Shown here: piece by piece, positions 31,962 to 46,482 of the stretch
How positions within the stretch are numbered: the first letter of the stretch is position 1
Layout: each line of letters opens with the position of its first letter
Assembly (NCBI GenBank): GCA_000165425.1
Contig: CT868015.1
Coordinates: 1-64,000 of the forward strand
Length of the DNA stretch: 64,000 nucleotides
Direction: 5' to 3'
Source of the DNA: Paramecium tetraurelia
Lineage: Eukaryota
Position numbers and translations under genes: made by a program
Notes under the pieces: generated by a model
What the model saw: only the letters and a program-made list of their open reading frames with translations
What the model was told of the DNA's origin: nothing
Databases searched by the model: none

Positions 31962-33217
31962 TGTTAGGTTGATTTAACTTCATTTTAAGATAATGATCGT
32001 TTCTAATTATAATCACTATTCCTCTTCATGTATTATTGTTATTCCTCTTGGAAGGCTGCTGTTTTTCTAGAATTCTTTAGACTTGGAATCTCTAATAAGC
32101 CAAATGAAATCTTGTTTTCAAAAAAATCCTCAGTTGGTTAAGTTTTAGTTCTTGATTACTAAGTATCAGTTTTTCTTTAAGTCTAATTCTCATCATGTTA
32201 ATCTAATATGAACTCATAAATCTAATGTTGTTAATCAAGATTTCTTGTATTAAATTAACTTTATAATTTCCTGATTTCCTCGACTGATTTGCTTAGAGTA
32301 TTTGTTTTGGTGCTGTATTTTCTTAAAGAAGGGTATTATTAGGATTTGATTTCAGTTAATGTATTTACCCGTAGTCTAACGAATTGCATCACCTCAAATA
32401 ACCTTATGTATCCCAATATTATCTCCTTCGATATAGGAGTTATTATGTATTACTAATTAGCTTTCTTAGAGAAATTAACTATCAAAGATATAATGACGAA
32501 TTACACACTAATTCTTGCGGAGTTTCCATTTAATCCAAATATCCGCTGCTCTTGATTTCCACCAACTGTCCCTGATTATATTTGCCTTTCACCCATTGAA
32601 TTCGCTGATCTTGGAATATCATCAACCCATTCCCATGATACACGCCTTATTGGAACTAGCCTTGATAAATCTCATCTTGCTAATCTAATCGACCCAATCC
32701 ATTTAATTTCCCTTCCACAAACTATCCACATTGATAGAATAAATTTGAAATCTCTATTCCCAAACCATTTGGTAAATTTGCCTTCCCTACATTTCCGTAG
32801 TAGATACAATGATTAAATAACTATATTTGTAAGTCCCCTTACTGCAGTTTACTTATGCCCTGCAATATACGATCAGCCTCTTGAGTGCAGTCATGGGTTA
32901 TCTGAGCACTCGATGATTGTATTGTGATCTTTCTTTCTCCTTCCTAAATGAACATAGCCTCTCCTTTGTCGAATTAACTATAAAACACTCTTGTGCCAAC
33001 CTTTATCACAATGTATCCATGGGCAACTCCCCTCTTGAAACCACCTTAGATGATGATCTAGCCACCTAAGAACAAGATTCCCTATCCGTCAATCAAATCG
33101 TTTTTCCACTCTCCATAATAAGCAGAACCAACATCCCATAAGTATACTCCAAGCCCATGTTTTTGTTATTTTGCATTTAATCCTTCCTTAATAAATTCCA
33201 TCCTTATGTTCCTTCAT
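31022..33217 (-). CDS. MORN-repeat protein with a long Gln-rich low-complexity C-terminal region
   Basis: KHGLGVYLWDVGSAYYGEWKNDLIDGQGILFLGG, GGFKRGVAHGY, GKFTKWFGN and YQGVYHGNGLM-type MORN repeats. Poly-Gln tract near 31900; stop TGA at 31022-31024. Confidence 0.8.
31898..31966 (-). repeat. (TAA)n microsatellite encoding poly-Gln
   Basis: 23 in-frame codons inside the MORN gene: 19 TAA, 2 TAG, 1 CAA and 1 TAT. Confidence 0.9.
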
Positions 33218-33403: not shown

Positions 33404-34452
33404 ATGCAAGTAGTAGCAAAAATCCCTGTTGAAATTAACAAGACCTTGGATGAGAATTATAAGGTGATCAAGGATCAATGCAAAAATGAAATGCTCAACT
33501 AGATGATTAATAGTTTATTAGATCAAGTAATTTGAAATTGAAATTATTAGAAACAAGCACCTCATATTCGATTACAATTTCTGTACAATATTCGACAATA
33601 AGATTAGAATATATAATTATCTGATCTATGCATCAACCAACTTGAATTGAACATAGTCAATAATATCAAATATGTATTCAAATTTCATTATGATAGAGTA
33701 TGGGTAATCATTAGAGCAAATACTAAGATACACAGATTTATTAAACTAGAATAAAATAGAGTTTTCTTGTGAATTCATGAGACCAATTCCCATCACATTC
33801 AATTCTTAAAGTTTCGATTATATTCAATTGGATCTGACTCATCAAACCATTTGGGACTACTCCATTACTCCTTTGATGAGATTTCGCCATATATTGTATT
33901 AAGCTTAATGTACAAAACTGTAATAGGGAGATCATCAACTGATTCTGAGTCTATTCAAACCAGAATATAAGATTGATTGGAATCAATTCAAACTTTTGGT
34001 TGAGTACAATCCATAATTAGTGAGTGATCTCATAACAAAATTATATCAATTGGGAGTAAATGCTAACGTGTATATATAAAATGATTTTTTTAGATATTTG
34101 GACTGTTTAATTTAGATTAAGATTAGTATTCAGACTTTAGAATTAGTGAACTAATTATCAAAGAGCATAAGTCTACCAGACCAATTCTTTAATATGTTCA
34201 TAAGGAAGTGCATAGTAAATTGTGAAGAATACAAGATCGTAAGATTATTAATTTATTATTTAGAATTAGCCATAACAATTGACTAGATAAGTGAGATTAG
34301 TATCAGTGTTTATCCGTACATTGATTAAATAAAAGACATTTGATCCAAAAAAGATTTATGTAGAATTGCAAGGGTTTTGCTTAGAATTTTCATCCATTCT
34401 AGAAGCAACTCAATTATTTAAGACTATTAAGAATGCAGTACAAGAATAATGA
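33404..34452 (+). CDS. CNOT11: CCR4-NOT complex subunit 11-like (start codon uncertain)
   Basis: EFMRPIP, IWDYS, LLVEYNPQLV, LELVNQLSKSISLPDQFFNMFIRKCIVNCE and RQVRLVSVFIRTLIK...IYVELQGFCLEFSSILEATQLFK match the CNOT11 C-terminal domain as I recall it (RLVRLVCVFLQSLI...[22 protein letters not shown]). Confidence 0.8.
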
Positions 34453-34666: not shown

Positions 34667-35773
34667 TCAGTCGCAAAAATATTACAGACCTTTTTCCTAA
34701 TCATTCGAATGTAAATTGTCATTACAAAATTTACATAAAAAGACAGGAGATGAACCTGGTATTAATGTATCTGAAATCCTAAATAATTAAGCAGACCTTC
34801 CACAACCATCACATCCTCTGATTTTTAGTGGTGCTTTAAAGATGGTCCTGGCATAAGGGGAATTAAGTTCTTCATCTTAAGTCAATGAACGTATTTCATT
34901 GACATATATTCTATGTTTGCATTAATTTAAATGCGTATATGTATATTGTTTACATAACACAAATTTAAGTTGCCCTATGACATCTTGTTTTTTTCCAATG
35001 CTGATTGATGGAGGATCAAAAATTTGTAATTCATCTTGATAAAACATTTTTTCTGTGGATTCAACAGGACAATCTATTTCCTAGATTACTGATTCAAGAG
35101 TTGCATCGTTTGTAGCTATGATGATTTACATCTTCTTATTAGTGAATGGATGATAAATAGTGAAATGAATCATGAATCTATCTTAGACATGATTGGATAT
35201 CTATTTGATTTTGTGAAGCTAATAGACATTTGGCTATATGGATTTAAGGAATCGAAATTCCTATTCTTACCTATGATATGTTTGTAAAATTACGCCAATT
35301 GAAAGGATTGCAATTTGCATTTCTTTAATTTGTCTTATTCCTACTTGAGTGAGGGGAATCCTTGTAAGGCATGAATGTAAGCACAATTGATGGCTTCATT
35401 CTTTACTTTTCTGACTTACATGGCTGCAATAACAGATTGAGTATAGAAATTAGTAGTAATTAACTCTGCATGATTCTGATATTCTAAGAGTTGGTTTTTC
35501 TTAAGCTCTAAATTATCTGAGGGTTTTTAATCTGGAATTTCATTTTCGTTCTATTCCTTTATTGTTATTTGATACTAATTGTTCAACTTTTTATAAGATA
35601 GAATGCAGTGTTGGAGATTTATAAGGTCTGAGGTCGATAGTATGATTGCATGAGTTCAATTTCGCAACTTCGATGAGTTCTGCAAAGGAATTTTAGAGAC
35701 CTTTAAAGTATCTAGCTAAATAGAATTGGTTAAATTACTCGATAGGACAGATTTCTTATTATTCCTACAGCAT
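34667..35773 (-). CDS. SNAPC3: snRNA-activating protein complex subunit 3 (SNAP50)-like
   Basis: C-terminal YTYTHLNQCKHRIYVNEIR...CDGCGRSA...SDTLIPGSSPVFLCKFCNDNLH fits the SNAP50 zinc-finger pattern (YxHxxxCxH...CxxC...PxFxCxxC...H). Confidence 0.75.
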
Positions 35774-35799
35774 TTTTATAAATAAATTATAAAGATAAG

Positions 35800-38700
35800 A
35801 TGGAATTAAACAATTCAATTTCAAGAAATTCAAGGACGTCTAGATAATCATTGGCCGAAGTTCTTTAAGCTCATGAAGAGTAATAGGAATTGGAATTGAA
35901 ATCCAAGCTGAAGAAAGCATAAACTCTAAGTTAAAAAAAAATCAGGTAGCAGCAAATCTAAACTTTAAAAGAGTAATCCTTAAGAGAGATATTGGGATTT
36001 TTTACGAATCAAATTGATGTCAAGAGATTTTTAAAAAACAAAAAGAAATTGCTGAGTTGTGACGATACAGAGGAATCAGAGAAATATTAAGATGAGTTTT
36101 TAAATCCAAATGAGTTTGAAGAAATGAAACATATTTATGGAGATTGCAATATTGGGGATCTTGTAATTGTTTTTCCGAATCCAGATGATGAGGATGCTCC
36201 TGTAGGGGAGGTAACTTTTTTGGAAGCCGAAAAGGTTTTTGATAAGTTTATTACAGTTATTACCGATGAAGTTTCTAAGTCATATTTAAAAAAAGAAAGG
36301 GATTCCTTTTTGTTGTCCTTTCTCACATTGGGGGATTATGTGAAGCCATAGAAAAAGACAAAGAAATAAGAGGATAAGAAATAAGATGACAAGAAATAGA
36401 ATAAGGATAATAATGAAAATTAGAATTAATAATCTGATAAAAAAGATGGTCATAAAGAGCAAAAGGAAAATAAAGAAAAGAAGAATTAAAATGATAAGCA
36501 TTAAAATTAATCAGAAGATGCCAAACTATTACCAAACTAAAAAGATTAACCATCAAGAATTAACTCATAGCAATCTTAACATACTGAAAGTAAGGCTTAA
36601 GAAGAAACTTCATATGAAAAATATTAAAAGTTTATGAAGCTCTATGAAGTATAATTAAAATAGGAGGAAGAATAATATCAAGAGCAAAGGAATGTTGCCA
36701 AATAAATTCAATTAGAATAATTTTCAGAAGTCAAATTTTCTTAATAATTCTATCGACATTGGTAAAAACAAAAAAAATAAGAAGACACCATCATTGACCC
36801 ACTTAAAGAATTACTTAAAATTGATCTTAATAATATTAAGCAATTCAAAAATGTGAGTAAATAACTAAGCAAGGGAGGGTATCTAGTAAAGAGAATGAAT
36901 GATGAAGTAGATTATGATTGGATTTGTCAAAATACACCTCCAAGAGATTTCTTGACTCTTGTTCGCATAACAGTTATCAATAAACTATGTAGAAATGCTT
37001 TTGTTCATTGTAGATAATTTGTTTCAACAACTGGAAAACAAATTTTTGTTGTTGTCAAAAGTCATCAATAAGTTATTACAAGACAAGCATAGAAAATGAA
37101 AATAACGAAATAAATAGAAATGGGATTCGCAGATTTATTTTCACTGGAACCTGTAGATAATGAATTTAGACCTTTGAGGTTGAAAAGCTATGTTAGGATT
37201 ATTGATGATGATTTAAGAAATATATTGGCATAGGAAGAATATGGTTAGACTGAACCTGAATTTGATTATTTGAATTGTTAGGATGTTGAAAATTACTGTT
37301 TGAAATTGTATATCAAAGTAAGACAATGGAAAGGAAAAGACTTGAAATATAATGTTGTTAAAAAATAAAGAGAGGTTGATAAGATATTGAAAGAAGTTGT
37401 TACAGACTTAAATATCGATCAAAGTCATGAGAAGGTTGAATTGATTGATGATATACCAATAACTGATGAGGAATGGCAGGTCTATTATCTCTATTTAGAA
37501 AGTATACTATGTTTTGGTAAGAAAATCTAATGGGCAAAAGAGTAAAAAATGAAGGAAGTAATAGAGAATATTGCTTTCCTCTATAAACTAGTCTTTCTTA
37601 AGGCATTAGGTGATGCCAACCAAATATGGTATGCTGAGAACCAAAGTTTTTGGAGGGAATTTAACGGAGAGAAGCAGATCATATTCAATTTATGGGGTAG
37701 ACTCAATATAACTCCAGTTGCACCATATACGGAGTATTTTAAATCATCAGGGAGTGCAGGTTCATCCCTGTGGAGAAAGTACGAGATTAATGAAAATAAG
37801 CATCGTTCAGAGTTTATTAATATGGAAAAAATTAAGATTACTAATTCGATTGTTTTAAAACATATTAACATTTTAAAGATGTTGTAAATGCAATATCTTT
37901 TTGCGTATTTCCCTGTTCATGACCTACATCAATTAAAAGGGTAAGGAGAGTTAAAGAAACAATTCTTTGAGCCCTTAAAAAAGAACGGATTTATTGTAGA
38001 GAAAGAAGCTTCTGAAGGTGAGAAATATTTGAGAGATTTATTTAAGGAATTAGCAGATGAAGCAGAATCAACAGATTTCGATTCTGAAAGTTTGGAAAAG
38101 GAAAGTGGATTCAATCCCAGAGTACCTTGGTTCGTTCCTATTGATTCGATACGTGATTATTTTGGGGAGAAGATTGCTTTGTATTTTGACTTTTTGAGTT
38201 ACTATGCTAAATAGTTATGGTATATGGCTGTTATCAGTATAATTACATAGGGAATTATGTCCTCTTCTTCATTAGAATTGAGACAGACAGCCATTATTGG
38301 ATTTTCAATCATTATTATTATTTGGAGTACATTCTTTATGGAATTTTGGAAAAGAGAATAGGTGTATTTTAGTGTGAGATTTGGATAATAAAATTTTGAA
38401 GCTGATGAAGCAGAACGTCCAGCCTTTGAGGGAGACTTCATAAGATCCGTATTGAATGATGATCTGAATGAAGAGTTTTACTCTCCTTTGAAAAGGAAAA
38501 TGAAATAACTTCTAGCATTATCAATAAGTGCTATAATTATTGGATGTGTTATTGGTTGTGTGATTGGCATCAACATTCTTAAGAATACATTGATTGAATA
38601 AAAACTTGATTAAACTCTTTCCAATACAATTCCAAGCATTCTCTAAGCAGTTTCCATTAACTTTTTTAACTTCATCTACAATAAAGTTGGTTAAACATTT

Positions 38701-39683
38701 AATGTTTTGGAGAATCATAAAATATTGTCTACTTACGAAAACTCTCTTGTTGCTAAATTCACTATTTTTAGATTTGTTAATAAGTAACCATATCCATATA
38801 TTTATAGTTTCATTTAATTTTTTATTACATCCTTTTTGTCAAGTTATTTTGTCTAACTCAAATTATGCTAAGTCAATTTAGAAATACAAAATGATTGTTT
38901 TTAAATTCTGTCTAATTAGATGACAACTATATTCTTAACGAATATTATATCTCTCTAAATCCCTAAACTAGTTGCTCCTCACATAAAAGCATTCATTACA
39001 AATGTATTGAATACCAAATATGATAATTTAGCTATTGACGAAGAAAGATGAAAAATTAGTAGAACATCCATTCAATCTGATTGATGAGGAGATAGAAAGG
39101 CAATTAAAATTAGACCCCTATCAAACTAACGAAGAGGTGGATGGAAGTGTAAATGACTATATGGAATTGGCAATTTAGTTCTCTTACCTTTCACTTTTTG
39201 GTTTAGCATTTCCAGCTTGTTACATCTTGGCTTTTGTCTAGAATGTAGTCAAACTTTAAGTCGATAAATTCAACTTCTTTAACTATTCAAGAAGACCATT
39301 CCCTCAAGGTGCATCTTCAATAGGAAATTGGTTGATTATATTTGAAATGATATCATTCCTGGCAATATTTACAAATGCTGGTTTGATTGTTTTTACTTCA
39401 GAAATAATTAAGGAAAACTAGGTGTAAGTATTTACAACGCTTTTAATTGTATTCTTAACACTAAAATATATTATCAGATTTCTAGTTCCTGATGAACCTG
39501 CCGAAGCTCTGGTATTGAATAGAAGACATGAATTTGTTGTGGAGAAGGCAGTTAAAGTAATGAGAAGTGATATTATTATTTTAGGGATTTCAAACTGAAA
39601 GCAATGCCAGATATTTAATACAAAAGATTAATAGATCGATTGGTGGTCCTAAGGAGGTTATAAGCAGTGAAGAGGAGGATTGA
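35800..39683 (+). CDS. Anoctamin/TMEM16-family protein, tandem copy 1 (Ca2+-site Glu to Lys at two positions)
   Basis: FPVHD, PIDSIRDYFGEKIALYFDFL, IWSTFFMEFWKREQ, ENH...YENSLVAK, FVN, DYMELAIQF, RRPFPQGASSIGNW and FLVPDEP. Three tiny introns in the 3' part. Confidence 0.95.
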
Positions 39684-39751
39684 ACTTGAATAGACTTTCT
39701 TTTAATTAATTGTTGTTTATTTTTTCAAATTAATTTATTATTTTATTGAAA

Positions 39752-42700
39752 ATGTCGACTTAGCAAAAATCATAATCGGCTAAATAGATTTAAGTGAAAT
39801 CGAAGGCGCAAAATAAGCAATCCTTGAACTCTAAGAAACTAAAATAATAAAAAATTTAAAACCAAAAGGAAGAGTCCTTAAGGGAAATTCTGGGCTTCTT
39901 TACAAATTAAGTCGATGCTAAGAAATTTCTAAAGAAGAAAACTGCCAAAGATTTGGTTGATAAGGATATCAATGATAAGGAATACAAGGAAGAGAAAATT
40001 TAAGATGAATTTCTGAATCCAAATGAATTTGCAGAAGTTAAAGGAACATACGATGATTACAATATTGGAGATTTGGCTGTAATCTTTTAAAATCCAGACT
40101 CCGATAATTGCGAGAATAGACCAGTTTCCTTCAAAGATGCAGTCAAAATATACGACGAAATGTTAACTGTGATGACTGATGAAGTTTCAAAATCGTAGAT
40201 GAAAAAAGAAAGATGTTCATTTCTCTTGGCATTTCTAACCTTAGATGATTATGAAGATAAGAAGGATGAGGGAAACCAGAAAAAGAAGAAAAAGAAAAAT
40301 TTAAAGAAAGAAGATAAATAAAAAACAATCAAGTCTTTATAGACTGCCACACAATTCGGAGAGGAAAAGGAATAGTTACAAAAAAAACAAGAAAAAACAT
40401 CCTATGATAGATATCTTGATTTCTTAAGAATGTATAAAAAATAAGAACAAGACCAAAAATTATAAGAAGATGAACAGAAAAAAGGAGGGGAAGTTATTCA
40501 ACAAAAGAAATAAGCCTATTTAGATGAAATTGGTATCGAACCTGATAAAATGGAAGTTAATCCTAACATGGTTCTAGATCCAATAAAAGAATTGCAAAAA
40601 GTGGATATAAGCGATACTTCTCAATTCAAAAAAGTCAAAAAAAAATGGTGTTAAGGTTAATATTTAAAGAAGACTAAAATTGATGAATTTCAAGAAAAGT
40701 ATGAATGGACATGCCAAAATACTCCCCCAAAGGATTTTCTAACATTGATCAGATTTACAATTATGGCCAAATTGTGTAGAAATGGGTTTCTTCATTGTAG
40801 ATAGTTTATTAATGGTACAGGAGAGTTGATTTTCCTTATCTTAAAAAGCAGTAAGGAGGTGGTGAAAAGATCAGCTCAAAATATGAAAGTCACAAAACAG
40901 ATTGAATTGGGATTTGCTGATTTGTTTAGTTTGGAACCAGTTGATGAAAGTTTCAGACCTTTAAGATTGAAGAATTACATTAGACAATATGCAAACAATG
41001 AAGAAATTAAGAAAAAGCTTTAAGAAATTCTTGATTCAAGGAAGGAGGCTCAAGGTAAAGAGGATGAGTTTAAAAAGAAATAGGATTAGTAGGATAAGAA
41101 AGACAATAAGGATTTAAATACTGATCCCAATTAAGCTTTAGTTGATTAATTGTAACATTTTAAAAAGATGCAAGATTTCAAAGAGAAAAAATATGTGGAT
41201 TAAGAGGAAATCAAGATAGAAGAGAATATTTAGTAGTAGAATAATTAAACTATTGGAAATTATTGTGATTCTCTCTATCCTATTATTTGTTAATGGGATG
41301 ATATTTTACTCCAGGTGTACACCATCTTAAAGTAGTAAGAAGTTGATAAAATTATGAAAATCATAGCCAAAGAACTTAATATTGATTAGAGTCACGAGAA
41401 GGTTGAATTGATTAATGATAAAGATATCACTAGGAAGGAATGGGAGATCTATTACATATATATGGAAATCTTATTGCATTTCGGATAGAAGATACAAAAT
41501 TTAAAGAAAAAAGGGAATTCTCAGATCTAAGAAAATTAAGCTTTCTTGTATAAATTGATATTTAGAAAGGCATTGGGAGATGCAAATGAATTATGGTATA
41601 AAAATCATCCAAGTGTAATGAGTGAAATAACATAGAATAAGTCAATCTTATTGAATTTATGGGGTAGACTAAATGTGGATCCAGTTGCGCCTTATACCGA
41701 ATTCTTTTAACCTAATAATGAGGTAGGAAACTCAATGTGGAGAAAGTATGAAGTCAATGAGAAAGGTTTAAGATCAGAATTTATTAATATGGAGAAGATT
41801 AAGATTACTCATGCCATTGTATTGAAAAACATCAATATTTTAAAAATGATCAAGGAACTTATTGTGACTGCCTACTTCCCAATTCACGACCATTATCAAT
41901 TGCAAGCCATTCCCAAGAGTCCATTCTTTGAGAAACTAATTGAAGGTGAGTTTATGCAACCAAAGGAAGATACTGAACACGAATATGAATTAAAAAATCT
42001 CTTTAATGAATTAAAGGATGAAGCAGAACCAACTGACTTTGATTCAGATAGTTTAGAAGAATCAAGTGCGTTTAATTTTAGGATCCCTTGGCATGTATCA
42101 ATCAATTCTATGAGAGATTATTTTGGTGAAAAAATTGCTCTGTATTTCTCTTTTTTGAGTTATTTCACTAAACAACTATGGTATATGGCTATTATTGGTA
42201 TTATTGCCTAAGGATTGATCTCTGCTTCCACAGAAGAAGCGAAATCCACAATGATTATCTTATTTTCATTAGCTATCATTATTTGGAGTACATTCTTCAT
42301 TGAGTTTTGGAAAAGAGAACAAATCCTATTTAGTGTTTAGTTTGGATAACAAAATTTTGAAGAGGATGAGGCTGAAAGACCAGCCTTTCAAGGTAAATAC
42401 ATAAGATCTATTACAAACGATGATTTGAATGAAGAATTTTATTCTCCTTTTTTGAGAAAGATGAAACAATTGTTTTCATTGGCTGTTAGTTTTCTTATCA
42501 TAGGATGTGTCATAGGTAGTGTGTTGGGAATATTTTTCTTTAAGAATTTAATGTTGTAATAGAAAGCCGATCCCTTTTATGCTTAGAATGTTCCAGCTCT
42601 TTTAAATTTTATTTAAATTAACTTTTTTAACTTTGTCTATTAAAAATTAAGTGACATTTTCAATATGTATGAAAACCATAAGATTTTATCATCCTATGAA

Positions 42701-43678
42701 AATTCTCTTATTGCTAAAATATTCATATTTATGTTTGTCAACAAGTAAGTTATGATCATTATTGTAGTTTCAATTCTTTCTTTATTATTTCATTTTTGTC
42801 TGGGTATTTTTCATAATTACAATTGTGTAAAGTGAGTGAGGAAGTGTAGAATGACTGTTTTTAAGTGTTATCAAATCAGATGACTGTTATTTTTCTATCA
42901 AACATCGGTAAAAACATTCCAGAATTGGCAACTCCCTATATTAAGGCATTTATTACCAAAGTAAATCATTTCATTCTATAAAACTATAGCAAATGAAATC
43001 CAAAACTACCAAAGAAGTTGAACACGCATTTAAGTTGATTGATTCAGCCATTGATGATCAAATGGAATTAGAGCCATATCAAACAAATGAAGAAGTAGAT
43101 GGAACAGTCAATGATTATATGGAACTTGTTATTTAGTTTTCATATCTTGCTTTGTTTGGACTTGCCTTCCCATCATGCTACATATTAGCATTTGTTTCGA
43201 ACATTATAGAAATACAAGTTGATAAATTCAAGTTGATCAGAGTTTCAAGAAGACCCTTCCCTTAGGGAGCTGCAACAATAGGAAATTGGCTGATCATTTT
43301 AGAAGTAATCACATTTTTTGGGATATTCTCAAACTCTGGATTAATCGTCTATACCTCTTAAACAATTCAAACTAATCAAATTGTCATATTTTCAGTTTTA
43401 CTCGTAGTTTTTTTGGCATTGAAATATTTTATCCGATTTTTGGTGCCAGATGAACCAGAATCAGCAACAATTCTAAATAAAAGGCATTAATACGTTGTTG
43501 ATAAAGTAGTTAAAGTAAGATCTATTACTATTTTAAGGGTTTTGCTCAAACTGGACAAAAGTCATACACCCCTGCTAAAATTAACTTAAAAATTGGAGGT
43601 GTCATCTATTCACAATAGGTTTCATAAATATTCAATCAAGATGAGAGTAGCAATAGAAATGAAGAAATTGCTGAATGA
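39752..43678 (+). CDS. Anoctamin/TMEM16-family protein, tandem copy 2 (canonical Ca2+-site residues)
   Basis: FPIHD, MRDYFGEKIALYFSFL, IWSTFFIEFWKREQ, KNIPE, DYMELVIQF, NIIEIQVDK and RRPFPQGAATIGNW. Same three intron positions as copy 1. Confidence 0.95.
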
Positions 43679-43945
43679 ATTATTAATTAATTAAAATTTA
43701 AATTTCTTCTTTTAGATTTATACTTTTTTTTTCTTTATTTGAAGTCCTTATTAATTTTGTTTTTGATATAAGCATACAAATGATTTCAAATTAAAAATCT
43801 CATATCACCAAACGAAGAAGAACTAGAATCCTTAAATTTCATCGAATGAATGAAGATGATTCATAAACAGAATTTATTTTTTTTTCTTATTTTTTAGTAA
43901 TATTATATTATTATAATTCAATAAATATTATTTGAAGTATCAAAA

Positions 43946-44190: not shown

Positions 44191-46482
44191 ATGTATTAAT
44201 GTTAAAAAGTGTTTTAAAATGAAGAAGAAGCCAAGGCTGCAGCCAATCTAACTATTATGGAAATCTTAGGCAATCCAAGCTATTAGGAAGATGAGAAGTT
44301 CGACAAATTGCTTAATTCGTTTATTGAACAATAATTGGAACTAGAAGACAAGATTTAGAAGATGATTAAATCCTAAATAGATGCACTCAATAAAACTAAG
44401 ACTTTTATGGATCACTGCTTTAACAATGTTGAAAAATGCGAATAACAAATAGAAATTCTAAATTAAGAATTTGATAATGATGCTCAATTTCATAAAGAAT
44501 TAGTCAACTATGAGAAGATATTTTTTTATCGCAAAAATATTGGATTAATGCTTGATCAAATGAAGTACATATTCAGAGTCTAAGAAGAAATTGATAAAAT
44601 GAATTCTACATTTTAAAGTGGAAATTGTGATTACGAGAATCTTCATTATAAACTAATTGCTTTGGTGGATATTCGAGATAACATCATAGAAGCAGTTAAT
44701 ACATCTCCATAATCGAAATAAGACTTAAGTGTTATCCTCAATGAATTCAAATGTCTATCAGAATTTGAGAACAAGTTCTATGACAAGATATACGAGATCT
44801 TTTTGACAACAGTTGAAGCATCTATCAAGAAACCTTAATAATTGATAAAGGCATTACAGATCATTGAAACTGCTGATAAATCTAGGGAATTAAGAAAGAA
44901 GGAATTGATTTATAAAAAAAGAGCCATAGTAACTATTTAATAGGGCATTGATGAGAAATTTAATTAGAAATTGAAGGATGCAAAGGATGCAGTCTAAATT
45001 TTAGAGCAATCTAAGTTTTCATCTGCTGATTTGATTTTGGCATTTGATCACACTGTAAAATGCTTCCCAAAACATTATGATATTTTTAAGATTATTGAAG
45101 ATTAGTATAAAGTAAATGTAGAAAAGAGAATCCTTCCCTTCCTTGAAGATGAGTAAAAGGTGACTGAGTCATTTGGTACTTTAATCAATTTACTAAGTTG
45201 GGTTGATTCCTATGAATAATTGTTAAGCAGAGTTGGTGAACAGAGTGAATCCTACGTTGCTTTAAGATGCAAAGTTAAATCTTACATGCCCATCTTTCAA
45301 GACCATGTAAATAATTTAATTATCGATTATTCTGAAAAGGCAATAAGAAAGGACAAGAGTGAATAGCAAACTTTAGAAAACATCACTAAACTTATTAAAA
45401 CTAAATAGGATTTATTAACCTACTTCCCAGAAGATATATTCCACTTTATCAATTAATAATTAGATATTCTTGGTCCAAATCTAAAGGGAGAAATATTTAT
45501 TGAATTTATTCGTTCCGTCTGTGGTACTCTATCCGAAGTCTTGAAAAAAGAATGCAGAGATTTTATAAATGAACTACCTAGCAGTGAGTAGGAAGGAGAA
45601 GTTTCACCTATTTACCTGCTAGTTTTACAAACCAATAATTATTACAAATGCATGACATATTCTAATGAAACAAAGGAATATTGCTTAAAGTTTTGTAATT
45701 AGTTAATATCAGAAAGAGTCTAATAAATATTTTATTAAGATTTGACTGGAGGTTTCAACGAAATCATTAATTTGTTGTTAGAAAAATCCTGTAAGTTGGT
45801 TTTTAATGAAATTAATGATTAAATTATCCCATTTCTATTCTCACCCAAATGGTAGAATGAGAACTTGATAGATCAAGCATTATTCACTATTAAGGATTAT
45901 CTTAAGGACATTTAATTATTAATGTTAAATTAGATTCATTTTAACAAGCTAGTCAAATTGATATTCAAATAACTAATCACCACATATGAAGAATAATTAT
46001 TATTTACTGTATAATTCATTGCAGGCATTCCTAAAGGTATATTATAAATTTGATAATATTTAGGTTACTTTCCCAAATTGTTAACAAACCTGAGTTTTGT
46101 GAATGAATAGGATAAAGATAAGAAAAAGAAAGAAAAAGACAAGAAGGCAGCTATTTAGATGATACTGTCTAACAAAGAGTTGGTTGTACCATAAATGCAG
46201 AGAGACAAGGAAGTCATAATGAATTCTATAGAATAAGATTATATTACTTAGGTCGGTAAGACAAGTGCTTAATAGTTTGATAAGATCTTGACTACTCTTA
46301 TCAAATCGATCAACAATCCAAAGAGTGAAATTGATGGATTGCTTCAACTTTATCCACAAAGTTTTGAATCATATGCTGTGTATATTTTGGAGGTAGTTTT
46401 TTGGATGAGAGAGGATTGCGATTCGAAATATAAGTAATAAAAAATGGAAATATTAAATAATTTAATAAACAAGAAATAATGA
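44191..46482 (+). CDS. Exocyst subunit Sec6/EXOC3-like helical protein
   Basis: About 750 aa, all helical in character. The N-terminus EEAKAAANLTIMEILG...KFDKLL...LEDKIQKMIKSQIDAL, the middle CFPKHYDIF and LLSWV, and the C-terminal ILEVVFWMRED resemble Sec6. Recognised from memory, not by search. Confidence 0.65.

What the first reader, a model, noticed from the sequence alone, without database searches (positions are those of the whole stretch)
38941..43215. Tandem anoctamin pair in which one copy has two Ca2+-binding glutamates swapped to lysine
Seen: copy 2 reads ...LSNIGKNIPELATP (GAA at 42922-42924) and ...VSNIIEIQVDKF (GAA at 43209-43211). Copy 1 reads ...LTNIISLQIPKLVAP (AAA at 38965-38967) and ...VQNVVKLQVDKF (AAA at 39251-39253), has one extra residue in that first helix, and still keeps DYME and the downstream Asp. 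Established: in TMEM16A the main Ca2+ site is formed by acidic residues in TM6 (NNLFE, E654), TM7 (E702/E705) and TM8 (NIIEIRLD, E734/D738). Inference: two separate charge reversals at the same site in an otherwise intact gene look selected. The lysines could stand in for bound Ca2+, giving a constitutive or voltage/mechanically gated channel or scramblase. Alternatively copy 1 could be a Ca2+-blind regulatory partner that heterodimerises with copy 2.
Basis: partly seen in the sequence, partly recalled or inferred. Interest (0 to 1): 0.75.

Follow-up and report, generated by a model that had tools for sequence, protein, structure and literature searches.

The report
Ciliate anoctamins with lysine-filled calcium site
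One of two neighbouring Paramecium membrane-protein genes has replaced two calcium-gripping residues with lysines, a change kept across species and shared with related genes, so it probably works without the usual calcium trigger, much as yeast IST2 does with one lysine at another position.

Summary
The window carries two intact tandem TMEM16/anoctamin genes of Paramecium tetraurelia. Copy 1 (1267 aa) has Lys1048 and Lys1134 at the TM6 and TM8 Ca2+-ligand columns. They are not read errors, the gene is transcribed, and both lysines are kept in 5 of 5 aurelia-complex orthologs. Corrections: copy 1 is not unique, since a second paralog group has both lysines and a third has the TM8 one. Its TM6 is canonical in length; copy 2 is one residue short and carries its own lysine at the N650-equivalent column. 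All lysine-type paralogs have Arg at the TMEM16A K588 column. Two lysines plus three remaining acids give net -1, the charge of a doubly Ca2+-bound site. Yeast IST2 is a solved precedent: one lysine replaces Ca2+ in a constitutive scramblase. Against a Ca2+-blind reading: Arg at these two positions in TMEM16A leaves Ca2+ gating, copy 1 keeps the third Ca2+ site, and 11 of 28 anoctamin matches in this genome have a lysine at some ligand column. Best reading (0.5): a functional TMEM16 independent of the primary Ca2+ site. New variant of a known kind.

The parts
35800..39683 (+). Copy 1 anoctamin gene, 1267 aa (P0022, GSPATT00031872001); introns 38784-38807, 39004-39031, 39557-39584
   Evidence: Pfam PF04547 residues 784-1220; sense poly(A) reads; its own splice joints were not listed
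38341..38343 (+). E848, TM2 ligand of the third Ca2+ site (kept)
   Evidence: site defined in PMC8640346
38647..38649 (+). A950, inner-gate column of TMEM16F F518 (Phe953 in copy 2; Ala is the protist consensus, 90 of 150)
38770..38772 (+). R991, TM5 pore column of TMEM16F Q559 / TMEM16A K588 (Met994 in copy 2)
   Evidence: equivalence in PMC8835819
38965..38967 (+). K1048, TM6 ligand column (TMEM16F E624)
39155..39166 (+). D1102-Y-M-E1105, TM7 ligands (kept)
39239..39241 (+). Q1130, TM8 N730-equivalent column, Gln in all lysine-type paralogs
39251..39253 (+). K1134, TM8 ligand column (E734-equivalent)
39263..39265 (+). D1138, TM8 ligand (kept)
39491..39493 (+). D1214, TM10 ligand of the third Ca2+ site (kept in copies 1 and 2, lost in the other two lysine-type groups)
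39752..43678 (+). Copy 2 anoctamin gene, 1283 aa (P0025, GSPATT00031873001); introns 42745-42767, 42961-42989, 43515-43537
   Evidence: all three introns are skipped in a contig of run X5
42910..42912 (+). Copy 2 K1046, a lysine four residues before the TM6 Glu (nhTMEM16 N448 column), shared with other ciliate members
42922..42924 (+). Copy 2 E1050, TM6 ligand
43209..43211 (+). Copy 2 E1136, TM8 ligand

Best explanation
Copy 1 is a functional TMEM16 whose primary Ca2+ site has been converted to an internal salt-bridge network. K1048 (TM6) and K1134 (TM8) take the places of the two Ca2+ ions and pair with D1102, E1105 and D1138, holding TM6 against TM7-TM8 as in the activated state. Activity is then constitutive or set by voltage, lipid or the retained third Ca2+ site, not by the primary site. 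Shown: the residues, their columns, conservation, transcription, intact predicted fold. Inferred: the salt bridges, the open state, the cargo. Cargo is open: lipid scrambling (about 55%) or an anion-leaning conductance (about 45%).
For: Column assignment. Both lysines in 5 of 5 orthologs and in 5 of 5 members of a second paralog group; TM8 lysine in 6 of 6 members of a third. Arithmetic: three acids plus two lysines give -1, equal to five acids plus two Ca2+. IST2 K443 replaces Ca2+ by a bifurcated salt bridge and IST2 scrambles without Ca2+. In TMEM16A, E650R keeps an EC50 of 6.5 uM while E650Q needs 4.3 mM, so a basic side chain at this TM6 position preserves coupling. Positive charge in the site speeds anion conduction additively. 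The two other lysine-type groups have also lost third-site acids, and a P. bursaria relative has Lys at the IST2 position. The model is a full TMEM16 fold with TM6 continuous through K1048 (pLDDT 89.5). Small inner-gate residues A950 and N995.
Against: No functional data. In TMEM16A neither E650R nor E730R (EC50 0.6 mM) was described as Ca2+-independent in the passages read, and G644P/E654R probably still binds one Ca2+. Charge-reversed primary-site mutants needed a gain-of-function background for basal activity, and the third site alone then sensed Ca2+ at about 320 nM; copy 1 keeps that site. Relative to copy 2 the TM6 change is +1, not +2, because K1046 is lost. The model's side-chain geometry could not be inspected. 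Ala at the gate column is the protist consensus (90 of 150), and K/R at the TM5 column occurs in 35 of 147 outside representatives, so neither is diagnostic.
Confidence: 0.5

Rival explanations
1. Copy 1 is still Ca2+-regulated but retuned: one ion binds the remaining D1102/E1105/D1138/Q1130, or gating has moved to the TM2/TM10 third site.
For: Three acids and the third site (E848, D1214) are conserved in 5 of 5 orthologs. TMEM16A E650R and E730R remain Ca2+-activated. The third site confers Ca2+ sensing when the primary site is destroyed.
Against: The acids are equally needed as counter-charges. The other two lysine-type groups keep the same three acids but have lost third-site acids. E730R alone shifts the EC50 about 600-fold, and both changes together should shift it further (inference).
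Confidence: 0.25
2. Copy 1 is transport-silent or nearly so and acts as a regulatory subunit, tether or scaffold, for instance in a heterodimer with copy 2.
For: Tandem position 68 bases apart on the same strand, both transcribed in the same two libraries. Primary-site mutants of TMEM16A can be silent.
Against: Two other lysine-type paralogs have no related anoctamin within the 30 kb examined. Gains of pore Arg and site Lys look like tuning of the transport path (inference). TMEM16A subunits have independent pores (abstract passage). No polybasic IST2-like tail (last 45 residues: 8 basic, 8 acidic).
Confidence: 0.15
3. The site simply stopped mattering in this ciliate subfamily; the lysines are tolerated G-to-A changes fixed in an AT-rich genome with no mimicry role.
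For: Each swap is one transition. Only 6 of 28 genome matches keep four acids on TM7-TM8. Relatives have Gln, Ala, Ser or Val at the same columns. If the lysine-type genes are one clade, the swaps happened once.
Against: A relaxed site should drift, yet the TM8 lysine is invariant in 16 of 16 sequences across three paralog groups about 50% identical, with D/E/D also invariant. Buried lysines are costly unless paired (established knowledge).
Confidence: 0.1

Closest known systems
Yeast IST2 (PMC12618243)
   Same: TMEM16 fold; a conserved Ca2+-ligand Glu is replaced by Lys with neighbouring acids retained as possible partners.
   Different: IST2 has one Lys at the TM7 column (nhTMEM16 E506) and keeps the TM6 Glu and TM8 Asp. 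Copy 1 has two, at TM6 and TM8, keeps both TM7 acids, keeps the third site, has a long N-terminal region and no long C-terminal tether.
TMEM16K / anoctamin-10 (PDB 5oc9, 6r65)
   Same: Best sequence match among solved structures (133 bits) and top Foldseek match; third-site acids shared.
   Different: TMEM16K keeps the TM8 Glu of the primary site; about 25% identity only.
TMEM16A and its engineered mutants E650R/E654R, E730R (PMC4112547, PMC6195346)
   Same: Same two ligand columns charge-reversed; basic residue at the K588 pore column.
   Different: Mutants are single, Arg rather than Lys, and still Ca2+-gated. Copy 1 is a natural double, lower in sequence score to TMEM16A (93-96 bits) than to TMEM16K or F.
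Copy 2 and its ciliate relatives (Ichthyophthirius P0008, Pseudocohnilembus P0037)
   Same: Same subfamily, matching intron places with copy 2, 56% identity over 1199 columns.
   Different: They keep five acids but have Lys at the N448/N650 column and a TM6 one residue shorter.

Membership tests
Anoctamin/TMEM16 (ANO family) | PF04547 domain above the curated cut-off | tested here: met
   360.5 bits against 28, residues 784-1220
Anoctamin/TMEM16 (ANO family) | Ten-helix TMEM16 fold with cytosolic N-terminal domain | tested here: met
   Predicted model pLDDT 89.5; VIA-align Z 37.7, rmsd 3.2, 562 aligned to nhTMEM16 6qma
Ca2+-activated TMEM16 (canonical primary site) | Five acidic ligands on TM6-TM8 | tested here: not met
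   Copy 1 has 3 of 5; copy 2 has 5 of 5
Ca2+-activated TMEM16 (canonical primary site) | Third Ca2+ site acids on TM2 and TM10 | tested here: met
   E848 and D1214 align to TMEM16K E259 and D615 motifs
IST2-type constitutive scramblase | Lys at the TM7 column of nhTMEM16 E506 | tested here: not met
   Copy 1 has E1105; the P. bursaria relative P0195 has Lys there
IST2-type constitutive scramblase | Long C-terminal tether with polybasic end | tested here: not met
   Only about 47 residues follow the Pfam domain; the end is acidic
IST2-type constitutive scramblase | Ca2+-independent scrambling | not testable with these tools
   Needs reconstitution
TMEM16A/B-type chloride channel | Basic residue at the K588 column | tested here: met
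   R991 aligns to TMEM16F Q559; K584(a) = Q559 in PMC8835819; not diagnostic, 35 of 147 outside representatives
TMEM16A/B-type chloride channel | Bulky hydrophobic gate at the L547/F518 column | tested here: not met
   A950 in copy 1
TMEM16A/B-type chloride channel | Anion-selective current without scrambling | not testable with these tools
   Needs electrophysiology

The most novel reading that the evidence does not exclude
Copy 1 and its paralogs are natural Ca2+-independent anion channels in which two lysines reproduce both bound Ca2+ ions and an arginine at the K588 column gives anion preference, evolved in a scramblase-like lineage independently of TMEM16A/B. The same ciliate subfamily has reached lysine-for-calcium substitution repeatedly at different ligand positions, one of them the IST2 position.
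Probability: 0.2. Interest if true: 0.75.

Novelty: new variant of a known kind. Interest (0 to 1): 0.5.

Why it matters
Whether neutralising the Ca2+ site is enough to open a TMEM16, or only removes an electrostatic barrier, is studied mostly with single engineered mutants. Here a conserved natural double swap sits beside a 56% identical acid-retaining paralog, so reciprocal swaps test the question directly. It would also give a first functional handle on ciliate anoctamins, for which my searches found no functional study, and most of which in this genome lack a complete site.

Tried and rejected
Read error: rejected (orthologs). Pseudogene: rejected (intact frame; sense reads; domain conserved). 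Copy 1 as unique: rejected. Whole-genome-duplication synteny: none of 219 window ORFs other than those on the anoctamin genes matched the three 30 kb paralog regions; only this window was compared. Recent gene conversion between the copies: not supported, 42 of 112 four-fold sites identical. Single origin of the lysines: the first tree grouped them (SH-aLRT 90, quick tree, trait columns included), but with 12 trait columns dropped and 16 rows the four groups are unresolved; AU tests reject neither a lysine clade (p 0.57) nor copy 1 + copy 2 (p 0.43). A second Ca2+ sensor such as an EF-hand: no Pfam hit besides Anoctamin in copy 1 at E up to 0.1. The TM6 exon alone found no anoctamin in the PDB. 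dN/dS could not be computed: no ortholog DNA. No copy-1 ortholog covering the lysines was found outside the aurelia complex; P0201 (82% to copy 1) starts after them. No listed holder run was on record as RNA. A complex prediction of copy 1 with copy 2 was not run, as a pass would follow from solved TMEM16 homodimers. Earlier scan notes held nothing like this sequence.

Full report
Observation. Under the ciliate code the region holds two same-strand genes: copy 1 at 35800-39683 (1267 aa) and copy 2 at 39752-43678 (1283 aa), each with three 23-29 base introns at matching places, 676 of 1199 aligned residues identical. The models equal database proteins P0022 and P0025 of Paramecium tetraurelia. 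Both carry PF04547. Synonymous sites look saturated (42 of 112 four-fold sites identical), so the duplication is old.

Mapping. K1134 aligns to the TM8 Glu of TMEM16F and TMEM16K. K1048 aligns without gaps to TMEM16F E624, and R991 to Q559 (numbers counted from the printed alignment). That E624 equals TMEM16A E654 is recalled; that Q559 equals K584(a) is from PMC8835819 (passages). Copy 1's TM6 has the TMEM16F spacing. Copy 2 and its ciliate relatives are one residue shorter and carry Lys four residues before the Glu, the nhTMEM16 N448 column (ligand list in PMC5868767, passages). So copy 2 is not fully canonical either.

Reality and expression. Four runs were laid on 35600-43900. No differing letters were listed, and one contig covers both lysine codons with 0 differences. 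Two stranded poly(A) runs cover both genes in the sense direction at low depth: by my averaging of the bins, about 1.0-1.1 for copy 1 and 1.9-3.5 for copy 2. Copy 2's three introns are skipped in a contig; copy 1's joints were not listed, so they rest on matching position and the database model.

Conservation. Both lysines, R991 and Q1130 are present in 5 of 5 copy-1 orthologs (tetraurelia, octaurelia, pentaurelia, primaurelia, sonneborni). The anoctamin domain is 92-100% identical among them, the first 370 residues 79-94%. A second paralog group (GSPATT00007662001 type, 5 sequences) has both lysines. A third (GSPATT00004147001 type, 6 sequences) has the TM8 Lys and Ala in TM6. All 16 have the TM5 Arg, the TM8 Gln and the three remaining acids; the second group has lost the TM10 acid of the third site and the third group both of its acids. 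Of 150 representatives from the wide search, 147 cover the site and none has a basic residue at both columns; relatives above 50% identity are collapsed in that library.

History. With the 12 trait columns removed, the order of the four Paramecium groups is unresolved, but the stem of copy 2 is short (0.18) and those of the lysine-type groups long (0.39-0.62) (16 of the 41 rows). Neither a single lysine clade nor a copy 1 + copy 2 clade is rejected. The number of origins is therefore open, and the 16 sequences may reflect one event.

Context that lowers surprise. Among 28 anoctamin matches in this genome (a lower bound), only 6 keep four acids on TM7-TM8 and 11 have a Lys at one of these columns: 3 at E734, 7 at D738, 1 at E705 (pairwise alignments, weaker for distant rows). 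A P. bursaria relative closest to copy 2 has Gln in TM6 and Asn/Lys in TM7, with Lys at the IST2 position; its TM8 looks mis-predicted, and the matching fragment P0200 shows Gln there.

Mechanism. Each Glu-to-Lys swap adds +2, the charge of one Ca2+; three acids plus two lysines give -1, as do five acids plus two ions (arithmetic). IST2 shows the principle: K443 replaces nhTMEM16 E506, bridges E379 and D476, and the protein scrambles without Ca2+ (PMC12618243, passages and section 8). In TMEM16A, E650R keeps an EC50 of 6.5 uM against 1.0 uM for wild type and 4.3 mM for E650Q, while E730R gives 0.6 mM (PMC4112547, passages; these numbers are 4 lower than the ac isoform). G644P/E654R conducts faster than G644P/E654Q and probably binds one Ca2+ (PMC6195346, passages and section 7). 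These fit a basic side chain substituting for an ion, but also show that single reversals leave Ca2+ gating. A review reports that primary-site charge reversals needed Q645A for basal activity and that the third site then sensed Ca2+ at about 320 nM (PMC8640346, passages and section 6). Copy 1 keeps that site, so 'Ca2+-blind' is too strong.

Structure. A model of residues 371-1267 is confident (pLDDT 89.5, pTM 0.89) with TM6 helical through K1048. It matches TMEM16K first by Foldseek and nhTMEM16/TMEM16F by VIA-align (Z 37.7, rmsd 3.2, 562 aligned).

Cargo. Nearest solved relatives are scramblases and the gate columns are small (A950, N995), which favours scrambling. R991 at the column where Lys lowers cation selectivity and scrambling in TMEM16F favours anion flow. 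Neither marker is rare among protist homologs.

Literature. Nine searches listed no study of Paramecium anoctamins, and none of the four gene numbers occurs in the library. A Stentor preprint mentions an untested anoctamin (10.64898/2026.07.23.740246, passages). The library lacks most subscription papers, and I read no supplements; the IST2 supplementary alignment and Paramecium proteome tables may bear on novelty and localisation.

Verdict. Real, conserved and expressed; a new positional variant of lysine-for-calcium replacement known from IST2, shared by a small paralog set. Primary-site Ca2+ independence 0.5, retuned Ca2+ control 0.25, silent partner 0.15, relaxed site 0.1. Interest 0.5.

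Noticed in passing
window 42910-42912; P0008, P0037, P0038, P0040: Acid-retaining ciliate members have Lys at the N448/N650 column, a non-Asn residue at the N730 column and a TM6 one residue short, so they may bind only one Ca2+. 16 of 121 Glu-bearing outside representatives have this Lys.
   Followed up: partly
L005 (G000:C50:69314-69604, -); P0042: A more distant paralog has Gln at both columns where copy 1 has Lys; an unnamed relative P0042 does too.
   Followed up: partly
P0195 (Paramecium bursaria), P0200: Relative closest to copy 2 with Lys at the TM7 column used by IST2, plus Gln/Asn at other ligands: likely convergence on the IST2 solution.
   Followed up: partly
L010, L012, L013, L015, L022, L024, L027, L019: Seven genome matches have Lys at the D738 column and one at E705; four of the seven also have Tyr at the E702 column.
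   Followed up: no
P0108, P0113, P0143; P0045, P0052, P0070: Two unnamed groups of outside proteins have TM6 Lys with loss of further acids: more candidate Ca2+-independent lineages.
   Followed up: no
window 42608-42610 and 42731-42733: Copy 2 has Phe at the F518 gate column (7 of 150 outside representatives) and Met at the Q559 column, a more hydrophobic gate than copy 1, and is the slowest-evolving of the four groups.
   Followed up: partly
window 44197-46050 (+), 34670-35392 (-), 33651-34340 (+), 32485-33204 (-): Neighbours match Sec6 (exocyst), SNAPC3, CNOT11 and MORN repeats; no link to the anoctamins is evident.
   Followed up: no
window 36300-36750 and 40900-41250: Each copy has its own long charged low-complexity insertion in the cytosolic N-terminal region, at different places.
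   Followed up: no
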